Source: Minisyncoccota bacterium (GTDB lineage: Bacteria > Patescibacteriota > Minisyncoccia > Phycocordibacterales > Zambryskibacteraceae). From it: a stretch of DNA of 64,000 nt. The position numbers and the translations under genes are program-made. The stretch spans positions 15,338 through 79,337 of the forward strand of contig DATDVZ010000010.1 of the NCBI GenBank assembly GCA_036517475.1, given 5' to 3'. Of the stretch, positions 16,116-53,976 are shown piece after piece (positions within the stretch are counted from its first letter, which is position 1; each line of letters opens with the position of its first letter). The notes below the pieces were generated by a model, which ran no database searches, was not told the origin of the DNA, and saw nothing but the letters and a program-made list of their open reading frames with translations.

Positions 16116-16157
16116 ACAGCTATATCATAACTTCAATTCTCCTAAATTTAAGGCTTA

Positions 16158-26513: not shown

Positions 26514-26541
26514 CTAAAATTTTAATTTAAATTTTAATATC

Positions 26542-27759: not shown

Positions 27760-27768
27760 TAAAATCCA

Positions 27769-40815: not shown

Positions 40816-41769
40816 ATGAAGCTCCCAAGCAAAAAAATTATCGCCCTGATTATTGTCTGCGTTTCAGCTGTGGTTTTCGCATTTTCTTATCAAAAATACA
40901 GCAATAGAACTGTGGCAGGAAGCATAAAACAAGCTGATTTGGTTCAGGTAGCCGGTGAAAAGGACTCTGATACAGACGGTGTTTCAGACTGGCAGGAAGT
41001 TTTATGGGGTCTTGACCCCCAAAACGCCGTCAGTAATACCGACAAAATTCCCGATAGCGAATATTTAAATAAAAAGAAAGAGGAATTGGCCAAAAACCCC
41101 AGTCAAATAAAAAACCAATTTGACACAACAGGTAGTAATGCGGGCACGACTTCAAATTTGAGCCCGACTGAAAAACTTGCCATAGAAACATTCAGTGAGT
41201 ATACATCTTTAAAACAATCAGGTGTTTTAACCACACCAAACATTAATATTACTACTGAAGGTATTGCTAATAATAACTCCTATACATTTGAGAACTCTTA
41301 TAAAATCAGTGATATTAAAACTATACCTGACTCTGATCTGGGTGGTGTAAAACTATATGGCAATGAGTTTGCCGCCCTGCGTTCAAAATACGTAAACCAA
41401 TATCAAAAAAACCCTCTGACCTCGGATATTTTCAATCAGGACAATGTTTCGGGTAATAATTTTCAAAACAAAATAAACTCCATATCAAATATATATCTTT
41501 CTCTTTCAAACGAACTCTCAATACTAAAAGTTCCTTCTTCTCTGGCACAAACTCATCTAAAACTAATAAATAACTACGCAAAAAGCGCCTCTGCATTCAA
41601 GATATTGAGTAATCTTTCAGAAGATCCGCTTTCTGCAGCCTATGCCCTCAATGAACACTCCATTGCCGAAAGTGAGGAACCCCAATTACTAAGCCAGATA
41701 AGGCTCTTTTTCCAAAGTAATGGTATAATTTTTTTATCCGATGAGACTGGGATTTTTTGGTCACAATGA
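40816..41769 (+). CDS. secreted hypothetical protein (first gene of the T4SS-like cluster)
   Basis: 317 aa, N-terminal TM, DSDTDGVSDW calcium-binding-like motif. Confidence 0.35.
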   Translation: MKLPSKKIIALIIVCVSAVVFAFSYQKYSNRTVAGSIKQADLVQVAGEKDSDTDGVSDWQEVLWGLDPQNAVSNTDKIPDSEYLNKKKEELAKNPSQIKNQFDTTGSNAGTTSNLSPTEKLAIETFSEYTSLKQSGVLTTPNINITTEGIANNNSYTFENSYKISDIKTIPDSDLGGVKLYGNEFAALRSKYVNQYQKNPLTSDIFNQDNVSGNNFQNKINSISNIYLSLSNELSILKVPSSLAQTHLKLINNYAKSASAFKILSNLSEDPLSAAYALNEHSIAESEEPQLLSQIRLFFQSNGIIFLSDETGIFWSQ

Positions 41770-43400
41770 AATTTTTTAAAAAAACTCTTTGCTTGATTCT
41801 TGTAGTAAGTATTATACTTCCCTCTCTTTTATTTTCTCCAAAGAAAGTTTCAGCTTTTACACTTCCCCCCGGCTTAGTTCCCATTCCGGCAGATAAACTT
41901 CCGCCAGTACCAACATCTGATGCTAGTATAAGACAAAAAGAGGTCGGGATTACGATTTTTGGCATTACAATACCGGGAATTACCCTTGATTCCTTTATGA
42001 TAATTTTTGCAAAAATTCTCCTTTCAAGAATGGCTGATGCTACTGTGGATTGGATAAACCGCGGTTTTGACGGCTCACCAGTATATGCCACAGACCCGCA
42101 GGCATTTTTTCTTCAAACCGCAGACAATGTTGCTGGAGAATTTCTAAACAGTGCCGGCTGGGGAGCCCTATGCTCACCCTTCAGGCTTGAGGTCAATACG
42201 GCTCTGCGAAATATTTACTCATCTTCAAGAATCACTTCTCGCACGCCTTTCCAAGCCAGATGCCCGCTATCGCAAGTAGTAAATAATATTGATGCATTTC
42301 TTAATGGTGATTTCAGTCAAGGGGGGTGGGATGCCTGGTTTGCTATGACACAAAATGCTTATGGAAATCCTTTTGATGCAACTCTTAATGCTCAGGCCCA
42401 ACTTTCACTGAGGATAAACAACGAGAAAACAATTGAACTTGCGAAACTAAACTGGGCCGGGGGATTTCTTTCGTGGTCGGATTGTATTGAAAGGGAAGGT
42501 AATGACGATTCGGGCGGTCCTGATGGGGACCCAGCTACCTCTGACGGTGAATGTACAAAACGCGGACCGACAAAGACTCCCGGAAAAGTTATAGAAACCC
42601 AGCTTGAAAATGTTCTGGGTTCTGAGGTTAAACAACTGGAACTTGCTGATGAATTTGATGAGATGGTAAGCGCCCTTGTGGGACAACTGGTTAAAAAAAT
42701 ATTCACTTCCGCAGGCGGTCTTTTCTCCGGCGGAGGATCAAATCGCTACTCTGATGGAGGCAGACAGCAAGATACTGGGGGCAGTTGTTCTGCAAACAGA
42801 GATACTGCCGTAATTGGCGATGAAATAACTTGGACTGTTTCTGTTTTTGGAACGGATCCGGAAAATTCAACAATTCAATGGAGTGGTGATGAAGGATTAT
42901 CTGGCAACACAAATCAGGTTAAGAAAGTTTACACAATACCGGGAGTAAAATCCGCAAGTGTTGTCATAACTGATCCGGCCGGTAGAACTTCAACTGTTAC
43001 TTGCACTGATACAGTTGAAGTTTCCAGATACCCCGCTCTTGCCGGATCATGCAGGCCAAACAGATACTCTGCTGGTGCATTTATTATAACTTCTAGCGGA
43101 GATCCGGTAACTTGGTATGGCACATTTACCGGCGGCTCCGGAGTTTTGGATCAGGCAATCTTTAGTGATCAGTTTGAGGGGGATTCGGAGGGCGCCGCAA
43201 TCGTTCCTCCATCATCTCCGCCCCCAGGAATAACTTTCAATCCTCCAGTAGGGGGGGGTGTCAGAGGCGTTTACGCAACATTTCAATACAATAGAATTGG
43301 CGATCACAATGTAACACTGCGATTAATTGATACAGATCCGACGGTACGACCAGCCACAATTCAATGCACTGATTCCGTAACAGTCTTCCTCAAACCATGA
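41757..43400 (+). CDS. secreted protein with C-terminal PKD-like domain
   Basis: 547 aa, signal peptide, Cys-containing globular region, PKD-like GDEITWTVSVFGTDPENSTIQWSGDEG. Confidence 0.4.
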   Translation: MVTMKFFKKTLCLILVVSIILPSLLFSPKKVSAFTLPPGLVPIPADKLPPVPTSDASIRQKEVGITIFGITIPGITLDSFMIIFAKILLSRMADATVDWINRGFDGSPVYATDPQAFFLQTADNVAGEFLNSAGWGALCSPFRLEVNTALRNIYSSSRITSRTPFQARCPLSQVVNNIDAFLNGDFSQGGWDAWFAMTQNAYGNPFDATLNAQAQLSLRINNEKTIELAKLNWAGGFLSWSDCIEREGNDDSGGPDGDPATSDGECTKRGPTKTPGKVIETQLENVLGSEVKQLELADEFDEMVSALVGQLVKKIFTSAGGLFSGGGSNRYSDGGRQQDTGGSCSANRDTAVIGDEITWTVSVFGTDPENSTIQWSGDEGLSGNTNQVKKVYTIPGVKSASVVITDPAGRTSTVTCTDTVEVSRYPALAGSCRPNRYSAGAFIITSSGDPVTWYGTFTGGSGVLDQAIFSDQFEGDSEGAAIVPPSSPPPGITFNPPVGGGVRGVYATFQYNRIGDHNVTLRLIDTDPTVRPATIQCTDSVTVFLKP

Positions 43401-45583
43401 TTAGTTATTTTATTAAAAATGAAAAAATAGTCCGCTTAATAACAATAGGATTATTGGTTAGCGTTTCATTTATCGCTCCAATTCAAACTTATGCTGCCTG
43501 GTGGTTTATTCCAGCAGCAGTTGGAGGAGTGTTTGCAGCATTGGGTATTGCGAAGGGCACAATTGGTGAAGCGGTTGATTATGTGACTAGATTCGTTGGA
43601 AATTTGATTTTGGGAATAATGGGCGTTTTGCTTGGTATAGCCGGTCTTCTTATAAATCAGGTAATAAATTTTACGGTAGTTGAACTCAAGGAAAATATCG
43701 ACAAAATTGGCGGAATTAATACGGTTTGGGGAGTAATAAGAGATTTAATAAATATTTCATTCATTTTTGTTCTTCTTTACGGTGCAATAAAAACAATTCT
43801 TGGAGTAGGTGATGTCAAAGTCAAAAATTTGATTATTGGAGTAGTGATTTCTGCGATACTCATTAACTTCAGCATGTTTTTTACCAAGTTAATGGTGGAC
43901 GCATCAAATATCGTTGCTTTGGTTTTTTACGAAAAGATAGCGCCCCAAAGTCAAACACTTACAGGCGGCATATCAGACACTTTTATGGATAGACTGGGGT
44001 TGGTTTCACTTTATGACCCTGAAGAAGGAGTGCTTGAAGAGGTTGGCAAGACTTTTCTTAGGACATTATTGAGTTCAATAATATTGGTTATTGCGGCATT
44101 CACTTTCTTTGCCGGAGCAATTATGTTTTTAATCCGGTTTGTAAATATCATCTTGCTTATAATGCTCTCCCCTGTCGCTTTTCTTATAGGAATAAACATC
44201 CCTGCCATCAACGAACAAGCAAAATGGTGGTGGGGAATAATGAATAAAGAGCTGTTATGGGCACCTGTTTATATGATTTTAATGTGGATGGTTCTTACAG
44301 TAATTGGAACGGCAAATTATTTCGGATCTGAAGACTCAGGACTTAGTCTGTTAGTCAACTTTGGAATAGTAATAATCTTACTTAATGCGGTGCTTATAAT
44401 TTCCAGAAAACTTGCCGGTCAGGGTGGAACTATTGGAGCACAAGTAGTTGGAAAATTTGTTGGTGGTGTGGGTGGTTGGGCGGGCAGACAAGCAATCGGT
44501 CGCCCAATGCATAAAATCGGCCAGAGTAAATGGTTCAATAAAGCTGCTAGTAAAATGCCTTTGGTAGGTGCTGCAGCAATACGTGGTGTAAAGCAAGTCG
44601 GAGAAAAATCCACTTTTGATGTTCGTGCTGGAAAGACTTTTGGTGACTTGGGAGCAGGTACGCCAAAAGGTGGTGGGTTCAGAGAAAGACAAATGGCTGA
44701 TGAAAAAGAAATAATGGGAGCTAAAGAAAGAGTAAGGATCGCCGAAGCCAAAGAAAGCATCAAAAAGGGCACCCGAGCTGCTGAAGACCCGGCTTATGCT
44801 GCTGCATTAGCTACAACCGTTGGGGCAAGAACACTACAACAACAAGCTCTGGTTGACGCAGTTGACCAGATGGAAATAGCTATTGGGAAAATGACTGGTA
44901 AGGAAATTGAAACTATTGTCTATGAGAATAAAAAATTACTACAAAGTGAGGCGTTTGCAAACAAAATCAGCGTTCAGCAGTTAGATACCCTTAACAAAAG
45001 CGAGAAATTATCAGAGGCTGAGAAAAATATTCTTAAAGACGCTCGTTTTGGTGAGATTGCTAGAGCAATCAGAACAGGTCCCTTGGCAACAGGTTCAAAT
45101 GAAGAAAAGAGACTTAAGGCTCTCACTGATACAGAACTTGAAATGTTGCCTGCAGACTTATGGCAAACTCACGGTGCAAATTTTGCTAATAATCTTAAGC
45201 GATCACAGATCGACGACATTATGAAAAGTAAAGCCATCACTAGCTCACAAAAGAAAGCAATTACAGACAGTAGAAAAGCCGCTCAACTTAATAACATTGC
45301 AGTGGGTGTCCCGGCTGGTCCAGGCGTGCCAATGTTCCTTGCTCCCGGTGAATACGTTAAAAAAATGGACATAAAGGATATCGCTGGTTTAGATTTCTTC
45401 ACAGCTGGTGTGCCGAACCCCGCGCTTGATCCTATATATCAATACATTACCCCACAAATGATTAGAAAGATTGGTAGAGAACTTGAACCACAAAAAGCAC
45501 TTGAACTAAAAACTCAAATTATGGCACATGGAGATCCAGCAACAATAACATGGCTTAATAATCATCCTGATGCGCTCGGCTAA
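43397..45583 (+). CDS. polytopic membrane protein, VirB6/TrbL-like topology
   Basis: 728 aa, at least 6 TM in the first 350 aa, long hydrophilic C-terminal domain. Confidence 0.35.
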   Translation: MISYFIKNEKIVRLITIGLLVSVSFIAPIQTYAAWWFIPAAVGGVFAALGIAKGTIGEAVDYVTRFVGNLILGIMGVLLGIAGLLINQVINFTVVELKENIDKIGGINTVWGVIRDLINISFIFVLLYGAIKTILGVGDVKVKNLIIGVVISAILINFSMFFTKLMVDASNIVALVFYEKIAPQSQTLTGGISDTFMDRLGLVSLYDPEEGVLEEVGKTFLRTLLSSIILVIAAFTFFAGAIMFLIRFVNIILLIMLSPVAFLIGINIPAINEQAKWWWGIMNKELLWAPVYMILMWMVLTVIGTANYFGSEDSGLSLLVNFGIVIILLNAVLIISRKLAGQGGTIGAQVVGKFVGGVGGWAGRQAIGRPMHKIGQSKWFNKAASKMPLVGAAAIRGVKQVGEKSTFDVRAGKTFGDLGAGTPKGGGFRERQMADEKEIMGAKERVRIAEAKESIKKGTRAAEDPAYAAALATTVGARTLQQQALVDAVDQMEIAIGKMTGKEIETIVYENKKLLQSEAFANKISVQQLDTLNKSEKLSEAEKNILKDARFGEIARAIRTGPLATGSNEEKRLKALTDTELEMLPADLWQTHGANFANNLKRSQIDDIMKSKAITSSQKKAITDSRKAAQLNNIAVGVPAGPGVPMFLAPGEYVKKMDIKDIAGLDFFTAGVPNPALDPIYQYITPQMIRKIGRELEPQKALELKTQIMAHGDPATITWLNNHPDALG

Positions 45584-45585
45584 AT

Positions 45586-46335
45586 ATGACTTTCACACAA
45601 CAACAAAAAAAAACTGCCTACATTTCGCTTAACCCAAGTGTTCAGTATTTTATAACTGACCCGGAAAGCAGAGAAATTTCAGAGAAAATTTCAAAACAAT
45701 ACTCACTTGATTTTGATCAGACAGATAATCTTGATGAGGAGATAGACAATACAATTTTAGGCCTCCAAAGTTTTAGAGAAATGATTATTAATCTTAGACA
45801 AAAACTTGGATTATCGGACGATAAAATAATTGAACTTGCTCGTGATCTTAAACAACAAATCTTTGACAAGTTGGATGAAATTAAAAAAGGAGAAATACAA
45901 TATCAAATTCCGGAAACTTTTATTTCGACACCCACACAGTTGAAAGCGAAAATTAACCCACCAACAACCTACAACTCACAACCAACAACTTATAAAGAAC
46001 CCAATCAAACAAATACTAAGCAAAATGCTTTGGAAAGGATGGATGGAGTTTTTAATAAGACAGCGCCGGCGCCGGGGAATTTACCGAGTCAACCAACAAC
46101 CGACAACAAACAACAAACAACAAACTTTCAAATTCCGAAAACTAAAGTAGTGGAGGAATATCATCAGGAATTAAAACCACCAACAACTAACAACCAACAA
46201 CTTACAACAAATAATAGACAACCTAATCAACCTATACAAAAATCACCCATGGAGAGGAAATTGGAGCAAAATCCAAATGTTATGAAAAGTTCATATGGTA
46301 ATAAACCAGATCCTTATCGCGAGTCACCACAATGA
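45586..46335 (+). CDS. Gln/Asn/Thr-rich low-complexity protein
   Basis: 249 aa; contains QLTTNNRQPNQP. Confidence 0.35.
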   Translation: MTFTQQQKKTAYISLNPSVQYFITDPESREISEKISKQYSLDFDQTDNLDEEIDNTILGLQSFREMIINLRQKLGLSDDKIIELARDLKQQIFDKLDEIKKGEIQYQIPETFISTPTQLKAKINPPTTYNSQPTTYKEPNQTNTKQNALERMDGVFNKTAPAPGNLPSQPTTDNKQQTTNFQIPKTKVVEEYHQELKPPTTNNQQLTTNNRQPNQPIQKSPMERKLEQNPNVMKSSYGNKPDPYRESPQ

Positions 46336-46745
46336 TATTCAAATTTCCGCAATATATTGATGTTGAAGACAAAATTTTCGGGCCGCTTACTATAAAGCAG
46401 TTCATTTATCTTCTAGGTGGGGCTGGAATTATCGTCACCATTTTCAGATTCTTGCCGGGTTTTATAGCCTTTTTTCTTGCTATACCAATAATTGCCCTGT
46501 CGCTTTCGCTTGCGTTTTGGAGAGTCAATAATCAACCTTTTATAAGTGTATTGGAATCCTTTATGAAATATGTCTTTGGGGAAAAGCTCTATATATGGAA
46601 AAAAGAAGCAAAAAAAATATCAAAAAAAGAACAAGAATCTATTAATCCACAGGTTTATATTCCAAAAGTTACTGATGGAAACCTTAAAAACTTGAAATGG
46701 AACATTGACGTTAAAAAATCACAGGACATAGAACCTGAGACATAG
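46332..46745 (+). CDS. small 2-TM protein, VirB3-like
   Basis: 137 aa; GPLTIKQFIYLLGGAGIIVTIFRFLPGFIAFFLAIPIIAL. Confidence 0.35.
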   Translation: MIFKFPQYIDVEDKIFGPLTIKQFIYLLGGAGIIVTIFRFLPGFIAFFLAIPIIALSLSLAFWRVNNQPFISVLESFMKYVFGEKLYIWKKEAKKISKKEQESINPQVYIPKVTDGNLKNLKWNIDVKKSQDIEPET

Positions 46746-46824
46746 AACATGGAACATGGGGCATGAGGCATGGAACATAAAACATGGAGCGTAAAACATT
46801 AAACATATAACAAGGAATATGGAA
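46727..46824. repeat. heptamer array, 14 units (catagaa cctgaga catagaa catggaa catgggg catgagg catggaa cataaaa catggag cgtaaaa cattaaa catataa caaggaa tATGgaa)
   Basis: begins inside the last codons of the 46332 gene (TAG in catagaa) and ends with the ATG of the 46819 gene. Confidence 0.85.
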
Positions 46825-47169
46825 AAAAGTTACAATGAGAGGTTGAAAAAATTAATAAATCAGTATGTCCATAAAGTTTATGATTACAGCGTTAACTTTC
46901 CAAAGAATGAAGTATTTGGACTAACTTCTCAACTCAAACGCTCTGCAATGTCTGTCGCATTGAACTATGTCGAGGGATACGCCAGAAGAAGAAAGCTTGT
47001 TTTTAAAAATTTTATTGAAATTTCCTACGGCTCATTGAAAGAAAGTGTTTATTTAGTTGAATTCTCGTATAATAGAAAGTACCTGAATATAAACCAATAT
47101 AAGGAACTAAACAATTTAGCAGAAGAAGTAGCTAAAATGCTTTGGGGAATTATGGATAAGTTAGACTAA
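46819..47169 (+). CDS. four-helix-bundle protein (23S rRNA intervening-sequence protein family)
   Basis: 116 aa; FPKNEVFGLTSQLKRSAMSVALNYVEGYARR...ISYGSLKES. Confidence 0.6.
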   Translation: MEKSYNERLKKLINQYVHKVYDYSVNFPKNEVFGLTSQLKRSAMSVALNYVEGYARRRKLVFKNFIEISYGSLKESVYLVEFSYNRKYLNINQYKELNNLAEEVAKMLWGIMDKLD

Positions 47170-47203
47170 TGGTCTATGTTCTATGATAAATGATCTATGA
47201 CTT
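47169..47203. repeat. heptamer array, 5 units (atggtct atgttct atgataa atgatct ATGactt)
   Basis: the last unit is the start codon of the 47197 gene. Confidence 0.8.
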
Positions 47204-47832: not shown

Positions 47833-47947
47833 AACATTAAACATGAAACATAGAATATTAGACATAGAACATAAAACACTTGAATTGAAAGTCCGAATTC
47901 AAAGCATGTTTCATGCTTCATGTTCCATGACTAATGATAAATGACCA
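47828..47947. repeat. inverted heptamer array: 8 units in catagaa phase, central gaattgaaagtccgaattc, then 6 units in atgttct phase ending in the ATG at 47941
   Basis: imperfect palindrome about 120 bp. The TAG stop of the upstream gene is inside the first unit. Confidence 0.85.
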
Positions 47948-49770
47948 CAATGGGAATATTTGATTTTTTAAAAAAGAAAAAAAGTGAAAATTCATTAGCG
48001 AGTATATCTATTCTGCCCCATGAAATTTATGAGGCAAATACTCTTGATTTAAAGGATATTATCGCTCCCAGCGCCCTTAAGGTCGGGCCAAAGGATATTA
48101 ACCTCGGCGAAAAGATAATGCGCTCTTTCTTTGTTATTTCCTATCCTTCTTCTTTGGGAGAAAGCTGGTTTGCGCCGATAATAAATTTGGACAGAGTTTT
48201 TGATGTTGCTATATTCGTCCACCCTATTGAAACTTCAAAAATTCTCAAGAAATTTCAAAAAAAAGTCGCAGAAGTCCAGAGTCAGATCCATGAAAGAGAA
48301 GAGAAGGGGCTTGTGCGCGATCCCATGCTTGATATTGCCTACCAAGACCTGGAAAATCTGCGGGATCAGCTGCAGCAAGCGCAAGAAAAACTATTTGACG
48401 TAGGATTATATATTTCAATTTACGCTGATAACGAAAATGAGCTGGATAAAATTGAATCTGAAATTAAGTCCATTCTTGAGTCCAAACTTGTCTATATCAA
48501 GCCGGCTCTTTTCCAGCAACAAGAAGCATTTAAAAGCATCCTGCCTATGGGAGATGATATTATTGCGGTAAATTCAAAACTTAACTCCTCCCCGCTTTCA
48601 TCACTTTTCCCTTTTATATCATTTGATCTTTCTACCGAGGAGGGAATTCTTTATGGCATTAACAGACATAACTCATCTCTTGTACTTTTTGACCGTTTTT
48701 CGCTTGAAAATTACAACTCAATAATTTTTGCAAAATCCGGTGCCGGCAAAAGCTATGCCACCAAGCTTGAAATCCTAAGGACACTAATGTTTGATACGGA
48801 AGTCATAGTAATTGACCCGGAAAGAGAATATGAATTCATGGCTGACGCCATCGGCGGAAGATATTTTAAAATTTCTCTGACCTCCGAACACCACATCAAC
48901 CCTTTTGATCTTCCGCCACCCGGACCGGATGAATCATTCGCCAATATTTTGCGCTCCAATATTATTAATCTTGTCGGACTCTTCCGCCTGATGATGGGGG
49001 GTCTCAGCGCCGAGGAAGATGCAATAATTGACAGGGCAATTACTGAAACTTACGCTCTCAAAGACATAACACCAGATTCGGATTTTACAAATATTGAACC
49101 TCCGCTTCTTACTGACTTTGAGCTAGTTCTATCTGGAATGGAGGGCGGAGCATCTTTGGCCCAGCGTCTTACAAAATACACAAAGGGTACGTGGGCCGGG
49201 TTTATAAACCGGCCGACAAATGTGGATATAAACAAGAAATTTGTTGTTTTTTCTTTGCGTGACATGGAAGACGAACTCAAGCCCATTGCAATGTATATCG
49301 TCACTCATTACATCTGGAGTGCTGTTAGAAAAGAACTTAAAAAAAGGCTTTTGGTTATTGACGAAGCTTGGTGGATGATGAAATCGGAAGATACCGCCTC
49401 ATTTGTGCTCAATATTGCAAAAAGGGGTAGAAAATATTTCTTAGGTCTTGCCACAATAACGCAGGATGTGGACGATTTCCTTGCCTCTCCCTACGGCACT
49501 CCTATCATTACCAATTCCTCAATTCAACTGCTCTTGAAACAGTCTCCGACAGCCATTGACCGCCTTCAGGGGGTTTTTAATCTGACTGATGAAGAAAAAT
49601 ATCTTTTACTTGAATCAAATGTTGGGGAAGGAATATTTTTTGCCGGGCTAAAGCACGTGGCGATAAAAATCGTTGCCTCTTATACCGAAGATCAGATTAT
49701 AACTTCCGATCCTGCCCAGATATTGGCAATACAAAAAGCAAAACAAGAACTCGAATCTGCTTCCGCGTAA
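47941..49770 (+). CDS. VirB4/TrbE/CagE-family T4SS ATPase (C-terminal ATPase part)
   Basis: 609 aa; Walker A SGAGKSYATK, Walker B LLVIDEAWWMM, RGRKYFLGLATITQ. Confidence 0.7.
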   Translation: MTTMGIFDFLKKKKSENSLASISILPHEIYEANTLDLKDIIAPSALKVGPKDINLGEKIMRSFFVISYPSSLGESWFAPIINLDRVFDVAIFVHPIETSKILKKFQKKVAEVQSQIHEREEKGLVRDPMLDIAYQDLENLRDQLQQAQEKLFDVGLYISIYADNENELDKIESEIKSILESKLVYIKPALFQQQEAFKSILPMGDDIIAVNSKLNSSPLSSLFPFISFDLSTEEGILYGINRHNSSLVLFDRFSLENYNSIIFAKSGAGKSYATKLEILRTLMFDTEVIVIDPEREYEFMADAIGGRYFKISLTSEHHINPFDLPPPGPDESFANILRSNIINLVGLFRLMMGGLSAEEDAIIDRAITETYALKDITPDSDFTNIEPPLLTDFELVLSGMEGGASLAQRLTKYTKGTWAGFINRPTNVDINKKFVVFSLRDMEDELKPIAMYIVTHYIWSAVRKELKKRLLVIDEAWWMMKSEDTASFVLNIAKRGRKYFLGLATITQDVDDFLASPYGTPIITNSSIQLLLKQSPTAIDRLQGVFNLTDEEKYLLLESNVGEGIFFAGLKHVAIKIVASYTEDQIITSDPAQILAIQKAKQELESASA

Positions 49771-49807
49771 TTTTTAATTTCAAATTAAAAATTATATAAT
49801 CAATTAA

Positions 49808-50536
49808 ATGAACCTTGATTCAGATATAAATGAAAATATAGGGAGAGGCCACTCTGCTCTCATCAGAAGTCCGGAAATTGACAGGCAGAGGGCAGAACAG
49901 AAAAAGCGCGCCGGACAAGTTCTTCAGAGTGCCGGTAAAGTCCTATCAAAAACGGGGGAAGGAGCAATAGTGGGAGTTCCAATGCAAGTTGCAGGAACAA
50001 TTTTAAGAAATAGAAACAATAAACAAAGAACGGGGGACGAGGAACAAGAAACAATTGGAACAACAGTGCCAAGTATTACAAGTGAATTTTCAAAGGATTC
50101 TAAAATTGTAAACGAATCGGCACAAAGATCGGAAAAAAGAAATAGAGTGACATTAACAACTACATATCTAATGTTTGGAACGGCTCTCTTTTTTGATTCC
50201 CTGCAATTTGTATTCAGTTTTGTGCCATTTCTTGGCTGGATATTGTCGGGCATCGTTGGTATTTTTGCCTGGTTAACTTTCTATACATGGACCTCAATAA
50301 AGGGCTGGGGCTGGTCAGATACTGTCAAAAAGATTGCAATTAATTGGGCATTGCCTTTGGTAGAAGTTTTTCCCATTATTAACGGCCTGCCACTGTGGAC
50401 ATTGCGAGTAGCAATACAAATTGCAATTATTAAAGCAGAAGATGTCCTATACAACAGTACTCAAGGAAAGGTGGATGTAAAAAATATACTCAATTTCAAA
50501 AGCAAGTATGGGGCAATCTTGAAACCTAGAACATAG
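49808..50536 (+). CDS. membrane protein (3-4 TM in the C-terminal half)
   Basis: 242 aa; stop TAG inside catagaa. Confidence 0.35.
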   Translation: MNLDSDINENIGRGHSALIRSPEIDRQRAEQKKRAGQVLQSAGKVLSKTGEGAIVGVPMQVAGTILRNRNNKQRTGDEEQETIGTTVPSITSEFSKDSKIVNESAQRSEKRNRVTLTTTYLMFGTALFFDSLQFVFSFVPFLGWILSGIVGIFAWLTFYTWTSIKGWGWSDTVKKIAINWALPLVEVFPIINGLPLWTLRVAIQIAIIKAEDVLYNSTQGKVDVKNILNFKSKYGAILKPRT

Positions 50537-50574
50537 AACATGCTTCATGCTCTATGTTTTATGTTCCATGATCA
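50525..50574. repeat. inverted heptamer array (cctagaa catagaa | atgcttc atgctct atgtttt atgttcc atgatca)
   Basis: seen directly. Confidence 0.8.
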
Positions 50575-50592
50575 ACAGGTTATAATTAAAAT

Positions 50593-51582
50593 ATGAGAAA
50601 AATTTTACTTCTTCTGACTGCATTTTTTTTAGTTAATGTCGGGATTATCTTTGCACAGATCAATATCAGCGACATTATCCCCAGTTTCAGTATAAAAATT
50701 TTTCCGGAAATCCCTGTTTCCGGAGACAAAATCAATATTTCAGTTGACAGTTTCTCGGGAATCAATATTGATTCTGCCTCCATTCGTTGGAGTATTAACA
50801 GCAAAATAGTTAAAGAGGGTGTTGGAGAAAAAAATTTCTCCTTTCAGGTAGGAGAATCAGGAAGTGAGACGGAGATCAGAGTGGATATCAACCCTCAAAA
50901 AGGACTGCCTTTTTCAAAAACAATTATTATTCGCCCTTCCGAAATTGATCTAGTATGGGAGGCAGATACATCAGTCCCCCTCCTTTACAGTGGAAAATCG
51001 CTTTTTTCCAGAGAAAGTCTCCTTAGATTTGAAGCTATTCCACATTTTGTTAGAAGAGATAAGACAGAAATCCCAAAAGAATCTTTAATTTATGAATGGA
51101 GAGCAAATAACAAGCTTTACCCAAATTCTTCAGGATATGGAAAAAACTTCTTTTCAATTTCCGGATCGCAATTTGAACAGGTTGAAACAATTGAGGTCAC
51201 GGCTCGTTCAACAGATGGGGGGTTTATTGCAAAGAAATTCGTAACAGTTGAACCTGTTTCTCCGGAAGTTTTAATTTATGAGAACAATCCGCTTCAGGGA
51301 ATACTTTATAATAGAGATGTCGGCTCACAATACAAGCTTTCAAATCAGGAAATCACCTTTAGAGCCGCCCCTTATTATTTTTCCACAAAGGATATCTTCT
51401 CATTTACATTTGACTGGCTTATAAACGGAGCAAAAGTAAGTGCTCCAGAAAAAGACGAGATGACATTAAGAGTGGAAGATGACTCTGCCGGATCATCACG
51501 AATATCAATTCAGGTCAAAAATCCAAAAAAAATTTTCCAGAATTCTAAAAAGGAATTCCTAATAAATTATGGCAATAACTAA
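50593..51582 (+). CDS. secreted beta-rich protein
   Basis: 329 aa, signal peptide. Confidence 0.35.
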   Translation: MRKILLLLTAFFLVNVGIIFAQINISDIIPSFSIKIFPEIPVSGDKINISVDSFSGINIDSASIRWSINSKIVKEGVGEKNFSFQVGESGSETEIRVDINPQKGLPFSKTIIIRPSEIDLVWEADTSVPLLYSGKSLFSRESLLRFEAIPHFVRRDKTEIPKESLIYEWRANNKLYPNSSGYGKNFFSISGSQFEQVETIEVTARSTDGGFIAKKFVTVEPVSPEVLIYENNPLQGILYNRDVGSQYKLSNQEITFRAAPYYFSTKDIFSFTFDWLINGAKVSAPEKDEMTLRVEDDSAGSSRISIQVKNPKKIFQNSKKEFLINYGNN

Positions 51583-52708
51583 CTCACAACTTACAACCAA
51601 CAACCGACAACCAAAATTGCTTTTGATTTTATTTTTATTTCTCTTCCTTTTTCCTTTTTCCTTTGTCAGCGCTGAAATACCACAGTCTGCCAGAGGTAAG
51701 CAATGTTTTGTTTTTGGATATGGCGGAGCAGCAAGTCTTTTCCCCTGTGAAAATCCACCAGCACAAGTGGTCGGCAGAGACTGTGTTGTTTGTGGTAACC
51801 CATCAAATGGTCAGTGTCCAACGCCAATTTCTACAACAAACGGAGGTGGGACAACATTCATATGCGAAGTAGGAACTGCTACTCCACCACCAAACAATCC
51901 TCCACCAACAAGTCTAGGATATATTCCATTGGCCCCACTTCCAGGTGATACACCAGGTCAACCTATAAAAGTTACTGACTATATTCCGAAGGTTTTTAGA
52001 CTTGCCATTGCTGTAGCAGGAGCACTGGCAGTAATTATGATTACAATCGGCGGAATTGAATACATTACTTCCGAAACTATTAACGGCAAAAAGGACGGCA
52101 AAGAAAAAATAACAAACGCTCTGGTTGGACTTCTTTTGGCAATCGGTTCCTGGATTATTTTAAATACGATTGCTCCCGACAGATTCACCCAATTTGATTT
52201 GAGTACGATAAGAACACCGCCACAAATTACAACCGCAACAACCACACCACCATCGCCTGGAAGCTGGCCGAGTGATCAGGGCGTCAGACAAAGGCTTGGG
52301 CTTAGCGGAATATCCATTAATAATAGTAACTGCACTTATATTGGACAGGTCGGATGCACTAGCGTCTATGGATTGAGAGAGAATATTATAAGTGGTCTTG
52401 AGCAGTTAGTGCGGGATTGTTTCGGCCAGTGCAATATCGTAATAACCGGCGGCACTGAATGGTGGCTGCACGGTAACAGAATTGATATCAATTCTACCCA
52501 GCATCGACCAGGTGGAAATGCTGTTGATTTGTCAAAAAATGATTCAGTATTAAATAACTTCATCATGCGTTTCCCGAAGATAGGTTCAGCAACTGGCGGA
52601 AACGGCTGCGCTACAGGCCAAGGATACAATGTTGGCGGAAAAATTTATGTTGATGAGATAAGTTCAGGGGCAAGCACCGGTCCTCATTGGCATATATGTT
52701 TTCCATAA
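51569..52708 (+). CDS. fusion: VirB2/TrbC-like two-helix membrane hairpin plus C-terminal peptidase M15-like (VanY/L-Ala-D-Glu peptidase-type) domain
   Basis: 379 aa; Cys-rich secreted N-region, FRLAIAVAGALAVIMITIGGIEYITS...ALVGLLLAIGSWIILNTI, then STQHRPGGNAVD (SxHxxGxAxD) and GPHWH. Confidence 0.45.
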   Translation: MAITNSQLTTNNRQPKLLLILFLFLFLFPFSFVSAEIPQSARGKQCFVFGYGGAASLFPCENPPAQVVGRDCVVCGNPSNGQCPTPISTTNGGGTTFICEVGTATPPPNNPPPTSLGYIPLAPLPGDTPGQPIKVTDYIPKVFRLAIAVAGALAVIMITIGGIEYITSETINGKKDGKEKITNALVGLLLAIGSWIILNTIAPDRFTQFDLSTIRTPPQITTATTTPPSPGSWPSDQGVRQRLGLSGISINNSNCTYIGQVGCTSVYGLRENIISGLEQLVRDCFGQCNIVITGGTEWWLHGNRIDINSTQHRPGGNAVDLSKNDSVLNNFIMRFPKIGSATGGNGCATGQGYNVGGKIYVDEISSGASTGPHWHICFP

Positions 52709-53976
52709 AAATGAAAATATTTAAAAACAAAAAAAATATTTACATCAGTTTAGGTATTGTCGCAATTCTTATAATCGTATTTGCCTCATTTTTTATTTTT
52801 TCTGGAAAATCAACTCCCTCTCAAAATCAAATAGACACCAATGCACCCTTTGGCACAGGAGGAGGTGATACTTCTTTTCCCACTGAAGTTAGTGGCGAGG
52901 GTTTTGAAAACACATCGCCAGTAAATCCACCAACAGGCTTGTCTATGTGGAAAATCTCTGAAATTCCAGTTACAGGAGCGGGGATTTTTGGTACAGGAAC
53001 CAGCACAACTATAAAGTTTGTTGAGAAAGCTACGGGACATGTGTACAAATACGATCCTGTTTCTGGAGTTAAAGAAAGAATTTCAAACACAACTATCCCA
53101 AAAACTTCAAAAATTGTCTGGGGAAAGGGCGGTGATTCTTTATTATTTCAATATGAAGAAAACGGCTCTATTAAAACCTATTACGCCCAAATTGCCACAA
53201 GCTCTGCCACCTCAACCCCTTCTGGGGATCAGGGATTAGTTAATGGATTTTTCTTTGAAGATAATATTAATAATTTAGTCACTTCGCCCAGTGGAAACAA
53301 AATTTTTTACACGCTTTCCGGAGGAAGCATTTTTAACTTCATAATTTCAGAATTTAATGGATCCAAACCTCTGAAAATCTATTCATCACGGCTTAAGGGG
53401 TGGCAAAATTCATTCCCGAATGAAAATTCTGTGTCAATTACTTCTAGTCCTTCATATGCGGCAGAAGGATACTCATATCTTATAAATTTAAAAAGTGGGT
53501 TGGTAGAAAAAACTATCGGCGGCAAAATTGGATTAACAACCCTTTATTCAAGCAGTACAAAGGGTGTTTTATATTCAAAGAGTGTGAACAATAGTTTCAC
53601 ATCATTTCTACTCAACAGGGAAAATAAAATCGATTTAGAAACAAACATATCAACCCTTCCGGAGAAATGTGTTTGGGGAGAAAAAAATTCTTCATTTATT
53701 TACTGCGGTGTTCCTAAAAATATCCCGGCTGGCACTTACCCCGATGATTGGTATAAAGGCAAGATATCGTTCTCCGATAATGTTTGGATCTATGATACTA
53801 ATACCAGTGCAACAGAATCAGTTATTGATCCGTTGAAAAGCGTTGGAGAGGATATTGACATGGTTGAACCGAAGTTGAGCAAAGATGAAACACTGCTAAT
53901 AATCAGAAACAAAAAAGATTCCTCTCTCTGGGCGCTGAAGCTTGATCCAAAGAGAATTATTGAGTATGTGGATTAG
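52687..53976 (+). CDS. membrane-anchored secreted protein (beta-rich, possibly propeller-like)
   Basis: 429 aa, N-terminal TM. Confidence 0.35.
   Translation: MAYMFSIKMKIFKNKKNIYISLGIVAILIIVFASFFIFSGKSTPSQNQIDTNAPFGTGGGDTSFPTEVSGEGFENTSPVNPPTGLSMWKISEIPVTGAGIFGTGTSTTIKFVEKATGHVYKYDPVSGVKERISNTTIPKTSKIVWGKGGDSLLFQYEENGSIKTYYAQIATSSATSTPSGDQGLVNGFFFEDNINNLVTSPSGNKIFYTLSGGSIFNFIISEFNGSKPLKIYSSRLKGWQNSFPNENSVSITSSPSYAAEGYSYLINLKSGLVEKTIGGKIGLTTLYSSSTKGVLYSKSVNNSFTSFLLNRENKIDLETNISTLPEKCVWGEKNSSFIYCGVPKNIPAGTYPDDWYKGKISFSDNVWIYDTNTSATESVIDPLKSVGEDIDMVEPKLSKDETLLIIRNKKDSSLWALKLDPKRIIEYVD

What the first reader, a model, noticed from the sequence alone, without database searches (positions are those of the whole stretch)
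40816..53976. About 13-kb co-directional T4SS-like / conjugation-type envelope apparatus cluster next to oriC
Thirteen plus-strand ORFs follow each other with small gaps or overlaps. Nearly all carry N-terminal signal or TM segments. The cluster contains a VirB4/TrbE/CagE-type ATPase (Walker A GAGKS, Walker B LLVIDEAWWMM, RGRKYFLGLATITQ), a separate VirB4-N-domain-like ORF, a 728-aa polytopic protein with VirB6/TrbL-like topology, a VirB3-like 2-TM protein, and a VirB2/TrbC-like hairpin fused to an M15-type peptidoglycan peptidase. There are also several secreted proteins with PKD-like or beta-rich folds. No VirD4 coupling ATPase, relaxase, or VirB9/10/11 is recognisable in the window. So this is not a classical Gram-negative T4SS. 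It is more like a minimal Gram-positive/CPR-type translocon. Together with comEC, the type IV pilus operon and the giant PKD adhesin in the same window, it is a candidate host-contact or DNA-transfer machine of an episymbiont. Only the VirB4 assignment rests on clear motifs; the other component assignments are inferences.
Basis: partly seen in the sequence, partly recalled or inferred. Interest (0 to 1): 0.8.

Follow-up and report, generated by a model that had tools for sequence, protein, structure and literature searches.

The report
Origin-proximal Patescibacteria-type type IV secretion cluster
This 13-kb gene cluster is the chromosomal type IV secretion system that ultra-small Patescibacteria (here a Paceibacteria genome) carry next to their replication origin; the system was described in 2023-2025, so this copy is an ordinary member that adds only some annotation detail.

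Summary
Window 40816-53976 carries 12 (not 13) co-directional, tightly packed ORFs. They lie between ksgA and the yidC-rnpA-rpmH / dnaA-dnaN origin region.

Four parts pass curated thresholds:
- VirB4 ATPase (NCBIfam CD1110, 373.5 bits against a cutoff of 325; PDB 4AG5, 3.8e-40)
- a separate TrsD-like VirB4 N-domain ORF
- PrgI/VirB3
- a T4SS_pilin hairpin

The 728-aa polytopic protein is probably VirB6-like. Its best PDB fold matches are R388 TrwI/VirB6, its weak profile hits go to Tn916 Orf15, PrgH and TrwI, and it sits where prgH sits.

The M15 peptidase call rests only on an H-x7-D...H-x-H motif. One ORF (46819-47169) is an unrelated 23S-rRNA-IVP cassette. The window holds no coupling protein, relaxase or VirB9/10/11.

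The gene order recurs in 43-47 of 47 full related Paceibacteria loci. VirB4 is 76-88% identical across species.

Quinonero-Coronel et al. 2025 and Wang et al. 2023 already describe this system: MPF-FATA-like, TrsD beside virB4, PF18895 pilins, no relaxase, next to dnaA.

Small additions:
- VirB4 is a conserved gene fission.
- The only pilin-like gene is fused to a putative zinc hydrolase.
- A very large secreted family has swappable adhesin domains.
- Hairpin cassettes sit in the operon spacers.

The parts
40816..41769 (+). O1, 317 aa. N-terminal TM anchor, then a DxDxDG..DW.E motif and a helical extracytoplasmic region. A lineage-specific cluster member of unknown role.
   Evidence: TM segment at 8-26. 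No Pfam or NCBIfam hit. Homologue present upstream of O2 in 34/47 related loci at about 26% identity. Alignment A7. No hit to 35 reference T4SS proteins.
41757..43400 (+). O2, 547 aa. Secreted protein with a conserved ~285-aa Cys-containing N-domain (mature N-terminus PPVPxSD, then a hydrophobic helix) and a variable PKD/Ig-like C-terminal part. Candidate T4SS-associated adhesin. A possible VirB5 analogue, but that link is weak.
   Evidence: Present in 45/47 loci, and its end overlaps the start of O3. The family has 5726 representatives at E<=1e-3. The N-domain stands alone in many genomes. C-terminal domains vary: PKD_4, Bact_surface_Ig-like, F5_F8_type_C, SdrD_B, SpaA. For the VirB5 link: 3/40 members hit NCBIfam TrbJ (2.3e-5) and 2/40 plus 1/87 hit DUF4141. 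Against it: phmmer aligns only the signal peptide plus the IPVxD region, and hhalign against TrbJ and TrwJ is negative.
43397..45583 (+). O3, 728 aa. Polytopic membrane protein (about 7-8 TM in residues 1-340) with a long helical C-terminal region. Probable VirB6/PrgH/Orf15-type channel subunit.
   Evidence: TM scan. AF2 model has TM-core pLDDT of 75-88. Best Foldseek PDB hits are R388 TrwI/VirB6 chains 8rt9_F, 7o3v_J and 8rtd_L, with prob 0.94-0.98 but E 0.1-0.3 and TM-score (target) 0.39-0.50. hhalign places PrgH, Tn916 Orf15 and TrwI on the same helix (R247...S258-P259), with prob 17-43% (PrgH, Orf15) and 2-4% (TrwI). These three are the top 3 of 35 reference proteins. The gene lies upstream of PrgI-VirB4, as prgH does in pCF10. 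No Pfam, NCBIfam or PDB sequence hit.
45586..46335 (+). O4, 249 aa. Soluble, low-complexity protein with TTNNKQQ-type repeats encoded by (ACAACCA)n heptamer arrays. Its C-terminal DPYRE motif is conserved. A variable member.
   Evidence: No TM segment and no family hit. BLAST-detectable in only 5/47 loci, although a DPYREP-coding end precedes the cassettes in relatives. Tandem repeats at 45964-46208.
46332..46745 (+). O5, 137 aa. 2-TM PrgI/VirB3-like protein, the inferred membrane partner of VirB4.
   Evidence: Pfam PrgI PF12666, 40.1 bits (GA 27). Two TM segments. Present in 47/47 loci at 48% identity.
46725..47200 (+). IVS-like cassette, not part of the T4SS. It holds a 116-aa 23S_rRNA_IVP four-helix-bundle gene (46819-47169) flanked by inverted heptamer arrays, (ATRGAAC)n and (GTTCTAT)n.
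   Evidence: Pfam 23S_rRNA_IVP, 92.9 bits. Arrays. Long-range stem in the RNA fold, z -2.6. Present in only 12/80 related loci, and in three different spacers.
47197..47832 (+). O7, 211 aa. TrsD-like protein that supplies the N-terminal domain missing from VirB4.
   Evidence: NCBIfam VirB4_plasma, 42 bits on model positions 102-233; CD1110 positions 2-166; TrsD E 0.015. A separate ORF in all 78 related loci that have both genes, in all three relative frames and usually 1-20 nt from virB4. 61% median identity.
47827..47940 (+). 'Empty' heptamer-array hairpin in the TrsD-VirB4 spacer. It accounts for the unusually long 108-nt gap.
   Evidence: Sequence and arrays. Fold -21.6 kcal/mol, z -2.0. 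Relatives with expanded spacers carry analogous hairpins built from genome-specific units, for example L072 at -52.9 kcal/mol, z -12.7.
47941..49770 (+). O8, 609 aa. VirB4-family ATPase (MPF-FATA / CD1110 type) lacking the N-terminal ~180-220 residues.
   Evidence: NCBIfam conju_CD1110, 373.5 bits (cutoff 325), on model positions 182-733. Pfam P-loop_TraG 93 bits and AAA_10 41 bits. PDB 4AG5 VirB4, 3.8e-40. Aligns to PrgJ residues 222-772, 4e-41. 76-88% identity in more than 80 species genomes.
49808..50536 (+). O9, 242 aa. Small membrane protein with a C-terminal 3-TM core. Family of unknown role that lies directly after virB4.
   Evidence: TM scan. Homologues of 111-299 aa share the core T..LM..A.FFD.LQ...P..GW...LTF..WF. 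Detected in 15/47 full loci by tblastn and in 24 of the 80 loci by blastp. No family hit.
50593..51582 (+). O10, 329 aa. Secreted protein made of three Ig-like repeats.
   Evidence: Signal peptide. W..NG motif recurs at residues 66, 169 and 275. Weak profile hits to Ig-like chains: Hoc 0.022, NAR 0.05. Present in 47/47 loci.
51569..52708 (+). O11, 379 aa. Signal peptide, VirB2-like T4SS_pilin hairpin (residues 136-201), Pro/Thr linker, and a ~150-aa Cys-stabilised C-terminal domain with invariant E297, H301, H312, D320, H373 and H375. Putative LAS-type zinc hydrolase.
   Evidence: Pfam T4SS_pilin, 29.1 bits (GA 26.6). All 44 homologues hit T4SS_pilin and 11 hit TrbC/VirB2. Invariant residues. 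AF2 pLDDT above 90 for the hairpin and the C-domain. Relatives carry VanY, SLT, YkuD or NlpC/P60 domains after the same hairpin. This is the only pilin-like gene in the window, and it is single-copy in 65/66 loci. M15 membership is not shown.
52687..53976 (+). O12, 429 aa. N-terminally anchored beta-rich protein, possibly a beta-propeller, with conserved Cys pairs.
   Evidence: TM segment at 20-38. Present in 47/47 loci. 3/39 members give weak PD40, DPPIV_N or DUF5050 hits. No PDB sequence hit.

Best explanation
The cluster is the vertically inherited, origin-proximal type IV secretion system typical of Patescibacteria, here in a Paceibacteria (Zambryskibacteria-like) genome.

Shown:
- A VirB4 ATPase that has undergone gene fission into a TrsD-like N-domain protein (O7) and a motor/C-terminal protein (O8).
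- A PrgI/VirB3-like 2-TM protein (O5).
- A VirB2-like hairpin protein (O11).

Probable: a VirB6-like polytopic channel subunit (O3).

Inferred mechanism:
- O5 and O7 tether hexameric O8 to the membrane at an O3 channel.
- O11 is anchored beside the channel by its pilin-like hairpin. Its C-terminal zinc-hydrolase-like domain opens the cell wall of the bacterium or of its host (a VirB1-like role). Alternatively it polymerises into a decorated pilus.
- The secreted or anchored proteins form the extracellular, host-facing part. These are O2 (conserved N-domain plus swappable adhesin domains), O10 (three Ig-like repeats), O12 (beta-rich) and O1.

The window holds no relaxase, no coupling protein and no mobile-element features. 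The machine is therefore most likely not conjugative. It more likely moves proteins or other molecules between the epibiont and its host cell, as proposed for the essential T4SS of Southlakia epibionticum.

The 23S-rRNA-IVP gene and the heptamer hairpins are insertions in the operon spacers, not parts of the machine.
For: Component identities:
- VirB4.
- TrsD-like N-domain. It is a separate ORF in 78/78 loci, in all three relative frames.
- PrgI.
- Pilin.
- VirB6-like: plus the pCF10 gene order.

Vertical inheritance and selection:
- More than 594 species genomes have a close VirB4.
- Gene order is conserved in 43-47 of 47 loci.
- VirB4 has 79% median identity, against DnaA 62% and YidC 49% in the same loci.
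- GC content does not differ from the surroundings.

No T4CP, relaxase or VirB9-11 occurs in any window ORF of at least 230 aa.

Literature:
- PMC12102498 describes the same repertoire and the same dnaA/rnpA/ksgA/rpmH neighbourhood.
- PMC10633639 and PMC12857230 report that the system is essential in Southlakia, that relaxase and coupling protein are absent, and that comEC is not required.

PG-hydrolase role of O11: the same hairpin is fused to VanY, SLT, YkuD or NlpC/P60 domains in relatives.
Against: - Function is entirely inferred. No experiment exists for any Paceibacteria T4SS.
- VirB6 support is sub-threshold: Foldseek E 0.1-0.3, and hhalign probability at most 43%.
- The LAS/M15 assignment of the O11 C-domain failed every profile test except the metal-ligand motif. 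Both fold searches were swamped by the helical hairpin.
- Six of the 11 T4SS ORFs (O1, O2, O4, O9, O10, O12) match no known T4SS component.
- No VirB8-like protein was found.
- A coupling protein or relaxase could lie outside the 64-kb window.
- The related loci were chosen by VirB4 similarity, which inflates the apparent conservation of VirB4 relative to its neighbours.
Confidence: 0.8

Rival explanations
1. A DNA or nutrient import machine. Here the T4SS works inward, like the H. pylori ComB or archaeal Ced systems, taking up host DNA, nucleotides or other molecules together with the neighbouring comEC, type IV pilus and recJ genes.
For: - The window also encodes ComEC (36947-38422), RecJ (34076-35827) and a PilB/PilC type IV pilus operon (24762-27759).
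- VirB4 gives a weak hit to NCBIfam DNA_import_CedB: 39.7 bits, cutoff 700.
- PMC12102498 notes T4SS next to comF/recG/radA in class ABY1.
- The FEMS review speculates that the system takes up molecules from the host.
Against: - In Southlakia a comEC deletion abolishes competence but not viability, while the T4SS is essential (PMC12857230).
- The CedB score is far below its cutoff.
- No ComB- or CedA-specific component was detected.
- Whether comEC lies near the cluster in relatives could not be assessed, because it falls at the edge of the 10-kb flanks.
Confidence: 0.2
2. A conjugative or ICE-borne DNA-transfer T4SS of the Gram-positive type (pCF10/Tn916-like). Its relaxase and coupling protein would lie elsewhere in the genome.
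For: - VirB4 passes the NCBIfam 'VirB4-like conjugal transfer ATPase, CD1110 family' equivalog cutoff.
- PrgI and a PrgH-like protein occur in the same order as in pCF10.
- The pilin hairpin weakly hits a Mycoplasma ICE pilin-like model, Mbov_0395, at 2.5e-4.
- T4CP genes are often far from virB4 (PMC12102498).
Against: - No relaxase, T4CP or flanking integrase lies in the cluster or near it. The only tyrosine recombinase is 36 kb away, at 3660-4616.
- The cluster keeps a fixed chromosomal position beside dnaA in 47/47 full loci and occurs across more than 594 species.
- GC content is the same as in the flanks.
- Only 109 relaxases were found across the Patescibacteria genome dataset of that study (103 genomes), and few of them lie near virB4.
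Confidence: 0.07
3. A housekeeping envelope-assembly or surface-display system. It would use a T4SS chassis to export the cell's own surface proteins or to remodel its wall, independent of any host contact.
For: - Conservation is at housekeeping level, and the cluster sits among core genes: yidC, rnpA, dnaA, ksgA.
- A wall-hydrolase-like domain is fused to the pilin hairpin.
- A PG_binding_1/TIG protein is encoded immediately upstream on the other strand, at 39673-40701.
Against: - O2-family proteins carry rapidly swapping adhesin-type domains: PKD, F5/8 type C, SdrD_B, SpaA. This pattern is typical of proteins that bind a variable external partner.
- The only experimental system links the T4SS to epibiotic growth on a host.
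Confidence: 0.1

Closest known systems
Patescibacteria-clade T4SS (Quinonero-Coronel et al. 2025, PMC12102498; Southlakia epibionticum SEML1_0006-0019, Wang et al. 2023, PMC10633639)
   Same: MPF-FATA-like VirB4. A separate TrsD-like gene beside virB4. PrgI/VirB3. A divergent VirB6. PF18895 VirB2-like pilin. No relaxase or T4CP nearby. Chromosomal location next to dnaA, dnaN, rnpA, rpmH and ksgA.
   Different: Saccharimonadia carry arrays of 2-11 short pilins. This Paceibacteria lineage has a single pilin-like gene, fused to a ~150-aa putative hydrolase domain. Several conserved members (O1, O2, O9, O10, O12) are not among the components named in those papers. An IVP cassette and heptamer hairpins interrupt the operon spacers.
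pCF10 Prg/Pcf conjugation system of Enterococcus faecalis (MPF-FATA prototype)
   Same: The order polytopic protein - PrgI - VirB4 - wall hydrolase is shared. O8 aligns to PrgJ residues 222-772 at 4e-41. O5 hits the PrgI Pfam family. O3 aligns weakly to PrgH.
   Different: pCF10 has a one-piece VirB4, the VirB8-like PrgL, the T4CP PcfC, the relaxase PcfG and the adhesin PrgB, and it has no pilin. None of PrgL, PcfC, PcfG or PrgB has a detectable counterpart here. Here VirB4 is split and a pilin-like protein is present.
pGO1/pSK41 Trs system (TrsD + TrsE)
   Same: A small protein related to the VirB4 N-terminal region is encoded beside virB4 (PMC12102498). O7 gives a weak NCBIfam TrsD hit, E 0.015.
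   Different: The TrsD score (15 bits) is far below the family cutoff (200). Here the adjacent VirB4 visibly lacks its own N-domain, so the pair looks like a fission rather than an extra subunit.
R388 Trw (VirB/D4-type, MPF-T) T4SS, cryo-EM structures 7O3V/8RT9
   Same: The best structural matches for O3 in the whole PDB are TrwI/VirB6 chains. VirB4 hits TrwK at 4e-8. The hairpin protein belongs to the VirB2/TrbC clan.
   Different: No VirB7/9/10 outer-membrane core, no VirB11, no VirB8, and no detectable VirB5. The envelope is monoderm.
Mycoplasma ICE conjugation module (Mbov_0395 pilin-like, Mbov_0396 TM protein, Mbov_0397 VirB4)
   Same: Sub-threshold NCBIfam hits: O7 and O8 to VirB4_plasma (42 and 259 bits), and the O11 hairpin to Mbov_0395 (2.5e-4) and Mbov_0396. 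This is another monoderm or wall-less system that pairs a pilin-like hairpin with VirB4.
   Different: All scores are below the equivalog cutoffs. The Mycoplasma module is on a mobile ICE with its own transfer functions, whereas this cluster sits at a fixed chromosomal position.

Membership tests
Patescibacteria-clade T4SS (MPF-FATA-related) | VirB4 ATPase of the monoderm (CD1110/AAA_10) type | tested here: met
   NCBIfam conju_CD1110, 373.5 bits, above the 325 cutoff. Pfam P-loop_TraG 93 bits and AAA_10 41 bits. PDB 4AG5, 3.8e-40.
Patescibacteria-clade T4SS (MPF-FATA-related) | Separate TrsD-like (VirB4 N-domain) gene adjacent to virB4 | tested here: met
   O7 maps to the N-terminal positions of two VirB4 models. 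It lies next to virB4 in 78/78 loci.
Patescibacteria-clade T4SS (MPF-FATA-related) | PrgI/VirB3-like 2-TM protein | tested here: met
   Pfam PF12666, 40.1 bits, above GA 27. Two TM segments.
Patescibacteria-clade T4SS (MPF-FATA-related) | VirB6/PrgH-like polytopic channel protein | tested here: inconclusive
   Top PDB fold hits are TrwI/VirB6, with prob 0.94-0.98 but E 0.1-0.3. hhalign probabilities: 17-43% for PrgH and Orf15, 2-4% for TrwI, 1.5% for TrbL. No Pfam TrbL hit.
Patescibacteria-clade T4SS (MPF-FATA-related) | VirB2-like pilin of family PF18895 near virB4 | tested here: met
   29.1 bits, above GA 26.6. 44/44 homologues hit PF18895 and 11/44 hit TrbC.
Patescibacteria-clade T4SS (MPF-FATA-related) | No relaxase or coupling protein in the neighbourhood; location beside dnaA/dnaN/rnpA/rpmH/ksgA | tested here: met
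   Pfam scans of all window ORFs of at least 230 aa. rpmH, rnpA, yidC, dnaA, dnaN and ksgA identified. Only the 64-kb window was tested.
Patescibacteria-clade T4SS (MPF-FATA-related) | VirB4 falls in the monophyletic Patescibacteria clade in a phylogeny | not tested
   No tree was built. Indirect support only: 76-88% identity to VirB4 of more than 80 Paceibacteria/Parcubacteria MAGs.
Conjugative T4SS (mating-pair formation plus DNA transfer) | Relaxase (MOB) and type IV coupling protein | tested here: not met
   None in the window. The rest of the genome cannot be tested with the data given.
Conjugative T4SS (mating-pair formation plus DNA transfer) | Carried on a mobile element (integrase and ends, patchy distribution, deviant composition) | tested here: not met
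   Same chromosomal position in 47/47 full loci. GC content matches the flanks. No integrase adjacent.
Gram-negative VirB/D4-type T4SS (MPF-T) | VirB7/VirB9/VirB10 outer-membrane core and VirB11 ATPase | tested here: not met
   No Pfam or NCBIfam hit. hhalign against TrwF, TrwE, TrbG and TrbI is negative.
LAS / peptidase M15 zinc hydrolases (O11 C-terminal domain) | Metal-ligand motifs H-x(3-7)-D and H-x-H | tested here: met
   H312-x7-D320 and H373-W-H375 are invariant in 44 homologues, together with H301 and the nearly invariant E297. hhalign aligns HxPGxxxVD to the VanY motif HxxGxAxD. The motif definition comes from my own knowledge of the LAS family.
LAS / peptidase M15 zinc hydrolases (O11 C-terminal domain) | Significant match to an M15/LAS sequence model or fold | tested here: inconclusive
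VirB5/TrbJ family (O2 N-domain) | Match to VirB5/TrbJ models across the domain | tested here: not met
   3/40 members hit NCBIfam TrbJ, and 2/40 plus 1/87 hit DUF4141. phmmer aligns only TrbJ residues 10-56. hhalign against TrbJ and TrwJ gives prob below 1%. No PDB hit.

The most novel reading that the evidence does not exclude
In Paceibacteria the T4SS chassis may have been rebuilt into a housekeeping-level host-piercing organelle with three features. The sole VirB2-like protein would not be a pilus subunit but a membrane-docked (or pilus-displayed) zinc wall-hydrolase. A fissioned VirB4 (TrsD plus motor) would drive a VirB6-like channel. The very large O2 family (5726 representatives) would act as a VirB5-analogous tip or adhesin whose interchangeable C-terminal binding domains set host range. 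Separately, the IVP genes held in genome-specific heptamer-array hairpins may be a previously undescribed class of IVS-like mobile cassette that targets mRNA spacers instead of rRNA.
Probability: 0.25. Interest if true: 0.6.

Novelty: already known. Interest (0 to 1): 0.3.

Why it matters
Patescibacteria are a large share of bacterial diversity and live attached to other microbes. In the one genetically tractable species, the T4SS is essential for that lifestyle. This locus shows no new kind of system, but it does give a clean Paceibacteria example with a nearly fixed gene order. In the loci compared, VirB4 is more conserved than DnaA, which suggests core importance. The refinements are useful for annotation and for choosing targets: VirB4 as a conserved two-gene fission, a single pilin-hydrolase fusion instead of pilin arrays, a probable VirB6, and a huge secreted family with swappable adhesin domains. 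They do not change the current picture.

Tried and rejected
1. Pseudogene or recoding explanation for the in-frame O7/O8 pair. Rejected: the 108-nt spacer holds several stops, and the two genes are separate, in all three relative frames, in 78 related loci.

2. Profile searches against PDB sequences. O2, O3, O10, O11 and O12 gave nothing significant.

4. hhalign of the O11 C-domain against VanY domains from pilin fusions. Only the HxxGxAxD motif aligned, prob 1.4%.

5. O2 as VirB5/TrbJ/DUF4141. There are a few member-level hits, but the similarity is limited to the signal peptide plus IPVxD, and hhalign is negative. Kept only as a weak lead.

6. Systematic hhalign of ten of the cluster's protein families (all but VirB4 and the IVP protein) against 35 reference T4SS proteins from pCF10, Tn916, R388 and R751. 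The test is insensitive: the positive control, PrgI, reached only 15%. O1, O2, O4, O9, O10 and O12 gave no hit, so no VirB8-like protein was identified.

7. Sigma-70 promoter and intrinsic-terminator scans. Counts equal chance.

8. Rfam on the whole window. Only tRNAs were found.

9. GC skew. It does not mark the origin in this window.

10. Literature search for IVP hairpin cassettes. Nothing relevant turned up.

Full report
**1. The observation**

Window 40816-53976 holds twelve plus-strand ORFs of at least 110 aa:
- O1: 40816-41769
- O2: 41757-43400
- O3: 43397-45583
- O4: 45586-46335
- O5: 46332-46745
- O6: 46819-47169
- O7: 47197-47832
- O8: 47941-49770
- O9: 49808-50536
- O10: 50593-51582
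- O11: 51569-52708
- O12: 52687-53976

Junctions range from a 22-nt overlap to a 108-nt gap. The quoted Walker A, Walker B and RGRKYFLGLATITQ strings are present in O8. A hydropathy scan finds an N-terminal signal, anchor or TM segment in eight of the twelve ORFs. O9 has only C-terminal TM segments, and O4, O6, O7 and O8 have none.

The flanks are as follows:
- comEC (36947-38422)
- ksgA (38419-39213)
- a PG_binding/TIG protein on the minus strand (39673-40701)
- yidC (54079-54792, minus strand)
- rnpA (54873-55202, minus strand)
- rpmH (55252-55386, minus strand)
- dnaA (55625-56974)
- dnaN (57185-58282)

One perfect DnaA box lies at 57133. 'Next to oriC' is therefore a reasonable inference from gene order. 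GC skew does not resolve it.

**2. Component identities that pass curated thresholds**

- O8 is a VirB4-family ATPase.
  - NCBIfam 'VirB4-like conjugal transfer ATPase, CD1110 family' scores 373.5 bits against a cutoff of 325, on model positions 182-733 of 752.
  - Pfam gives P-loop_TraG 93 bits and AAA_10 41 bits.
  - PDB 4AG5 (Thermoanaerobacter VirB4) hits at 3.8e-40 and R388 TrwK at 4e-8.
  - O8 aligns to residues 222-772 of pCF10 PrgJ at 4e-41.
- O5 is PrgI/VirB3-like: Pfam PF12666, 40.1 bits against GA 27, with two TM segments.
- O11 carries a T4SS_pilin hairpin: PF18895, 29.1 bits against GA 26.6, residues 136-201. All 44 aligned homologues hit PF18895 and 11 also hit TrbC/VirB2.
- O7 maps to the N-terminal part of VirB4 models: VirB4_plasma 42 bits on positions 102-233, CD1110 positions 2-166, TrsD E 0.015.
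- O6 is not a T4SS protein. It is a 23S_rRNA_IVP four-helix-bundle protein at 92.9 bits.

**3. The 'split VirB4'**

O7 and O8 happen to lie in the same frame, but the 108-nt spacer holds several stop codons. In 78 related loci the two genes are always separate. They occur in all three relative frames and are usually 1-20 nt apart. O8 lacks the first ~180-220 residues of one-piece VirB4 proteins, and O7 covers that region.

This is therefore an old, conserved gene fission, not a pseudogene. It corresponds to the TrsD homologue that Quinonero-Coronel et al. report as the most abundant T4SS component next to virB4 in Patescibacteria (PMC12102498).

**4. The VirB6 candidate, O3**

Pfam, NCBIfam and PDB sequence searches give no hit. 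An AlphaFold2 model built on 21 homologues has a TM core with pLDDT of 75-88; the overall mean is 62.

Foldseek against the whole PDB ranks R388 TrwI/VirB6 chains first: 8rt9_F, 7o3v_J and 8rtd_L. Probability is 0.94-0.98, E is 0.1-0.3, the target-normalised TM-score is 0.39-0.50, and about 285 columns align.

hhalign places pCF10 PrgH (17%), Tn916 Orf15 (43%) and R388 TrwI (2%) on the same O3 helix, which carries the family's invariant R247 and S258-P259. In a scan of 35 reference T4SS proteins the three best templates for O3 were these same three VirB6-family proteins. That test is insensitive: the Pfam-confirmed PrgI control reached only 15%.

O3 also sits where prgH sits in pCF10, upstream of prgI-prgJ. 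I rate 'VirB6-like' at roughly 0.75. It is probable but not proven.

**5. The pilin-enzyme fusion, O11**

Behind the hairpin and a Pro/Thr linker lies a ~150-aa domain. Its invariant residues are H301, H312, D320, H373 and H375; E297 and four Cys are nearly invariant. AlphaFold2 models it at pLDDT above 90.

H312-x7-D320 plus H373-x-H375 resembles the LAS (M15/M23/hedgehog) zinc-ligand pattern; that pattern definition is my own knowledge. No model-level test confirms membership:
- Only 1/44 members hits Peptidase_M15_4 (E 0.066) and 1/44 hits HH_signal (E 0.011).
- The PDB profile search found nothing.
- hhalign against VanY aligned only the HxxGxAxD motif.
- Both fold searches were dominated by the helical hairpin.

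Context does help. In other Patescibacteria the same hairpin module is fused to VanY, SLT, YkuD or NlpC/P60 wall-acting domains. A peptidoglycan-directed role, as a VirB1 analogue, is therefore a fair inference.

O11 is the only pilin-like gene in the 64-kb window. It is single-copy in 65 of 66 related loci, and most copies are 250-430 aa, that is, fused. This differs from the arrays of short pilins described in Saccharimonadia.

**6. The remaining members**

- O2 has a conserved ~285-aa N-domain with four conserved Cys. Its motifs are W-IN-GF-GNP, CSPF, QGGW and TPG-VI-QL.
  - In many genomes the N-domain stands alone. In others it is followed by PKD, Ig-like, F5/8 type C, SdrD_B or SpaA domains.
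  - A full HMMER scan of 1.84 billion representatives found 5726 family members at E<=1e-3.
  - Its mature N-terminus (PPIPVSD in most members, PPVPTSD in the window protein) resembles the IPVxD start of TrbJ. A few members hit TrbJ or DUF4141 models.
  - The similarity is confined to the first ~50 residues, and hhalign against TrbJ and TrwJ is negative. A VirB5-analogue role stays a weak lead.
  - PMC12102498 states that no adhesins were detected near these T4SS. O2 is a candidate.
- O10 consists of three Ig-like repeats.
- O12 is anchored and beta-rich, with a few weak beta-propeller hits.
- O1 is anchored and helical.
- O9 belongs to a small 3-TM family found directly after virB4.
- O4 is a low-complexity protein and a variable member.
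- None of these matched any reference T4SS component, and no VirB8-like protein was found.

**7. Conservation and context**

A genome scan with O8 returned more than 594 species genomes. The best 80 are Paceibacteria/Parcubacteria MAGs (many labelled Zambryskibacteria) at 76-88% identity.

In 47 loci with full flanks the gene order is conserved. Median identity to the window proteins is as follows:

| Protein | Median identity |
|---|---|
| VirB4 | 79% |
| DnaA | 62% |
| TrsD | 61% |
| YidC | 49% |
| PrgI | 48% |
| DnaN | 48% |
| KsgA | 48% |
| O2, O3, O10, O12 | ~31-32% |

The loci were selected by VirB4 similarity, which biases this comparison. Even so, such conservation across species argues for strong purifying selection.

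GC content matches the flanks. No ORF of at least 230 aa in the window is a coupling protein, relaxase, VirB9, VirB10 or VirB11. The only tyrosine recombinase lies 36 kb away. The cluster is therefore a vertically inherited chromosomal system, not an ICE.

**8. Comparison with the literature**

PMC12102498 describes the following, which is what is seen here:
- a Patescibacteria VirB4 clade sister to MPF-FATA
- TrsD, PrgI/VirB3, scarce VirB6 hits and PF18895 pilins near virB4
- VirB1-like proteins associated with virB4 in Paceibacteria
- almost no relaxases
- proximity to dnaA, dnaN, rnpA, ksgA and rpmH

Wang et al. 2023 (PMC10633639) showed by Tn-seq that the T4SS of Southlakia epibionticum is essential for epibiotic growth and lacks recognisable coupling and relaxase proteins. 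The 2025 FEMS review (PMC12857230) adds that a comEC deletion is viable, and it speculates about a pilus-like conduit.

**9. Mechanism**

Shown: the identities listed in section 2.

Inferred:
- PrgI-like O5 and TrsD-like O7 tether the O8 hexamer at an O3 channel.
- O11, docked by its hairpin, cuts peptidoglycan.
- O2, O10, O12 and O1 form the exposed, host-facing part.
- The substrate is unknown. Conjugation is unlikely, and export to or import from a host cell is the leading idea.

Rivals are an import machine (0.2), a conjugative system with distal relaxase and T4CP (0.07), and host-independent envelope assembly (0.1).

**10. Side observation**

The operon spacers hold hairpins built from inverted arrays of a 7-nt unit. 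In the window the unit is ATAGAAC/GTTCTAT, and the two-unit pattern ATRRAACATRRAAC is found 19 times against 0.85 expected.
- One pair of arms encloses the IVP gene.
- An 'empty' hairpin fills the TrsD-VirB4 spacer.
- A third hairpin lies between O9 and O10, at -19.7 kcal/mol and z -3.8.

In relatives the IVP gene occupies three different spacers of the same operon and is present in 12 of 80 loci. It is flanked by arms built from genome-specific heptamers; 8 of 13 cassettes have an own-arm duplex z of -2.7 or lower. Expanded TrsD-VirB4 spacers in relatives are strong heptamer hairpins, for example L072 at -52.9 kcal/mol and z -12.7.

This looks like an IVS-like mobile cassette family in mRNA spacers. 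It is not part of the T4SS and was followed up only in part.

**11. Verdict**

The feature is real, correctly located and largely correctly interpreted, and the system is already described. Interest is 0.3.

Noticed in passing
window 46725-47200; also 47827-47940, 50523-50569, 39203-39247, 939-1006; related loci L002, L014, L016, L018, L020, L025, L029, L044, L048, L050, L053, L059: The 23S_rRNA_IVP gene (46819-47169) sits in the loop of a long stem formed by inverted arrays of a 7-nt unit (ATAGAAC/GTTCTAT). 'Empty' hairpins of the same build lie in other spacers. In relatives the IVP cassette occupies three different spacers of the same T4SS operon, and its arms are built from genome-specific heptamers. 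It looks like an IVS-like mobile cassette family that inserts in mRNA spacers rather than in rRNA.
   Followed up: partly
window 45964-46208 (O4), 51593-51614 (start of O11), 40320-40355 (minus-strand gene 39673-40701), 55406-55425, 63479-63504: A second heptamer family, (ACAACCA)n, lies inside coding regions and produces TTNNKQQ-type peptide repeats in three unrelated secreted or cluster proteins. In locus L025 the same unit forms the arms of the IVP cassette, so coding repeats and spacer hairpins may share an origin.
   Followed up: partly
related loci L001-L080 compared with the window: Across related Paceibacteria species VirB4 (median 79% identity) is more conserved than DnaA (62%), YidC (49%), DnaN (48%) and KsgA (48%) encoded in the same loci. 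Selecting the loci by VirB4 similarity inflates this figure, but it points to housekeeping-level constraint.
   Followed up: partly
window 20280-24407 and 24762-31157: A 1375-aa protein with six K319L-like PKD domains (Pfam, 358 bits) lies directly upstream of a type IV pilus operon: PilB-like T2SSE, PilC-like T2SSF, then several small ORFs and a 648-aa ORF with no Pfam hit.
   Followed up: no
window 39673-40701 (minus strand): A secreted 342-aa protein with a PG_binding_1 domain and TIG/Ig-like domains is encoded divergently from the first T4SS gene. BLAST detects it at the same position in about a third of the related loci (17/47).
   Followed up: no
window 13806-16116 (minus strand): A cluster of six tRNA genes: Gly-GCC, Pro-GGG, Pro-TGG, Pro-CGG, Gly-TCC and Arg-TCG. 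All three proline isoacceptors lie within 1 kb.
   Followed up: no
window 18059-19513 (minus strand) and 29211-31157 (plus strand): Two large ORFs (484 aa and 648 aa) have no Pfam match at E<=1e-4. The second closes the type IV pilus operon.
   Followed up: no
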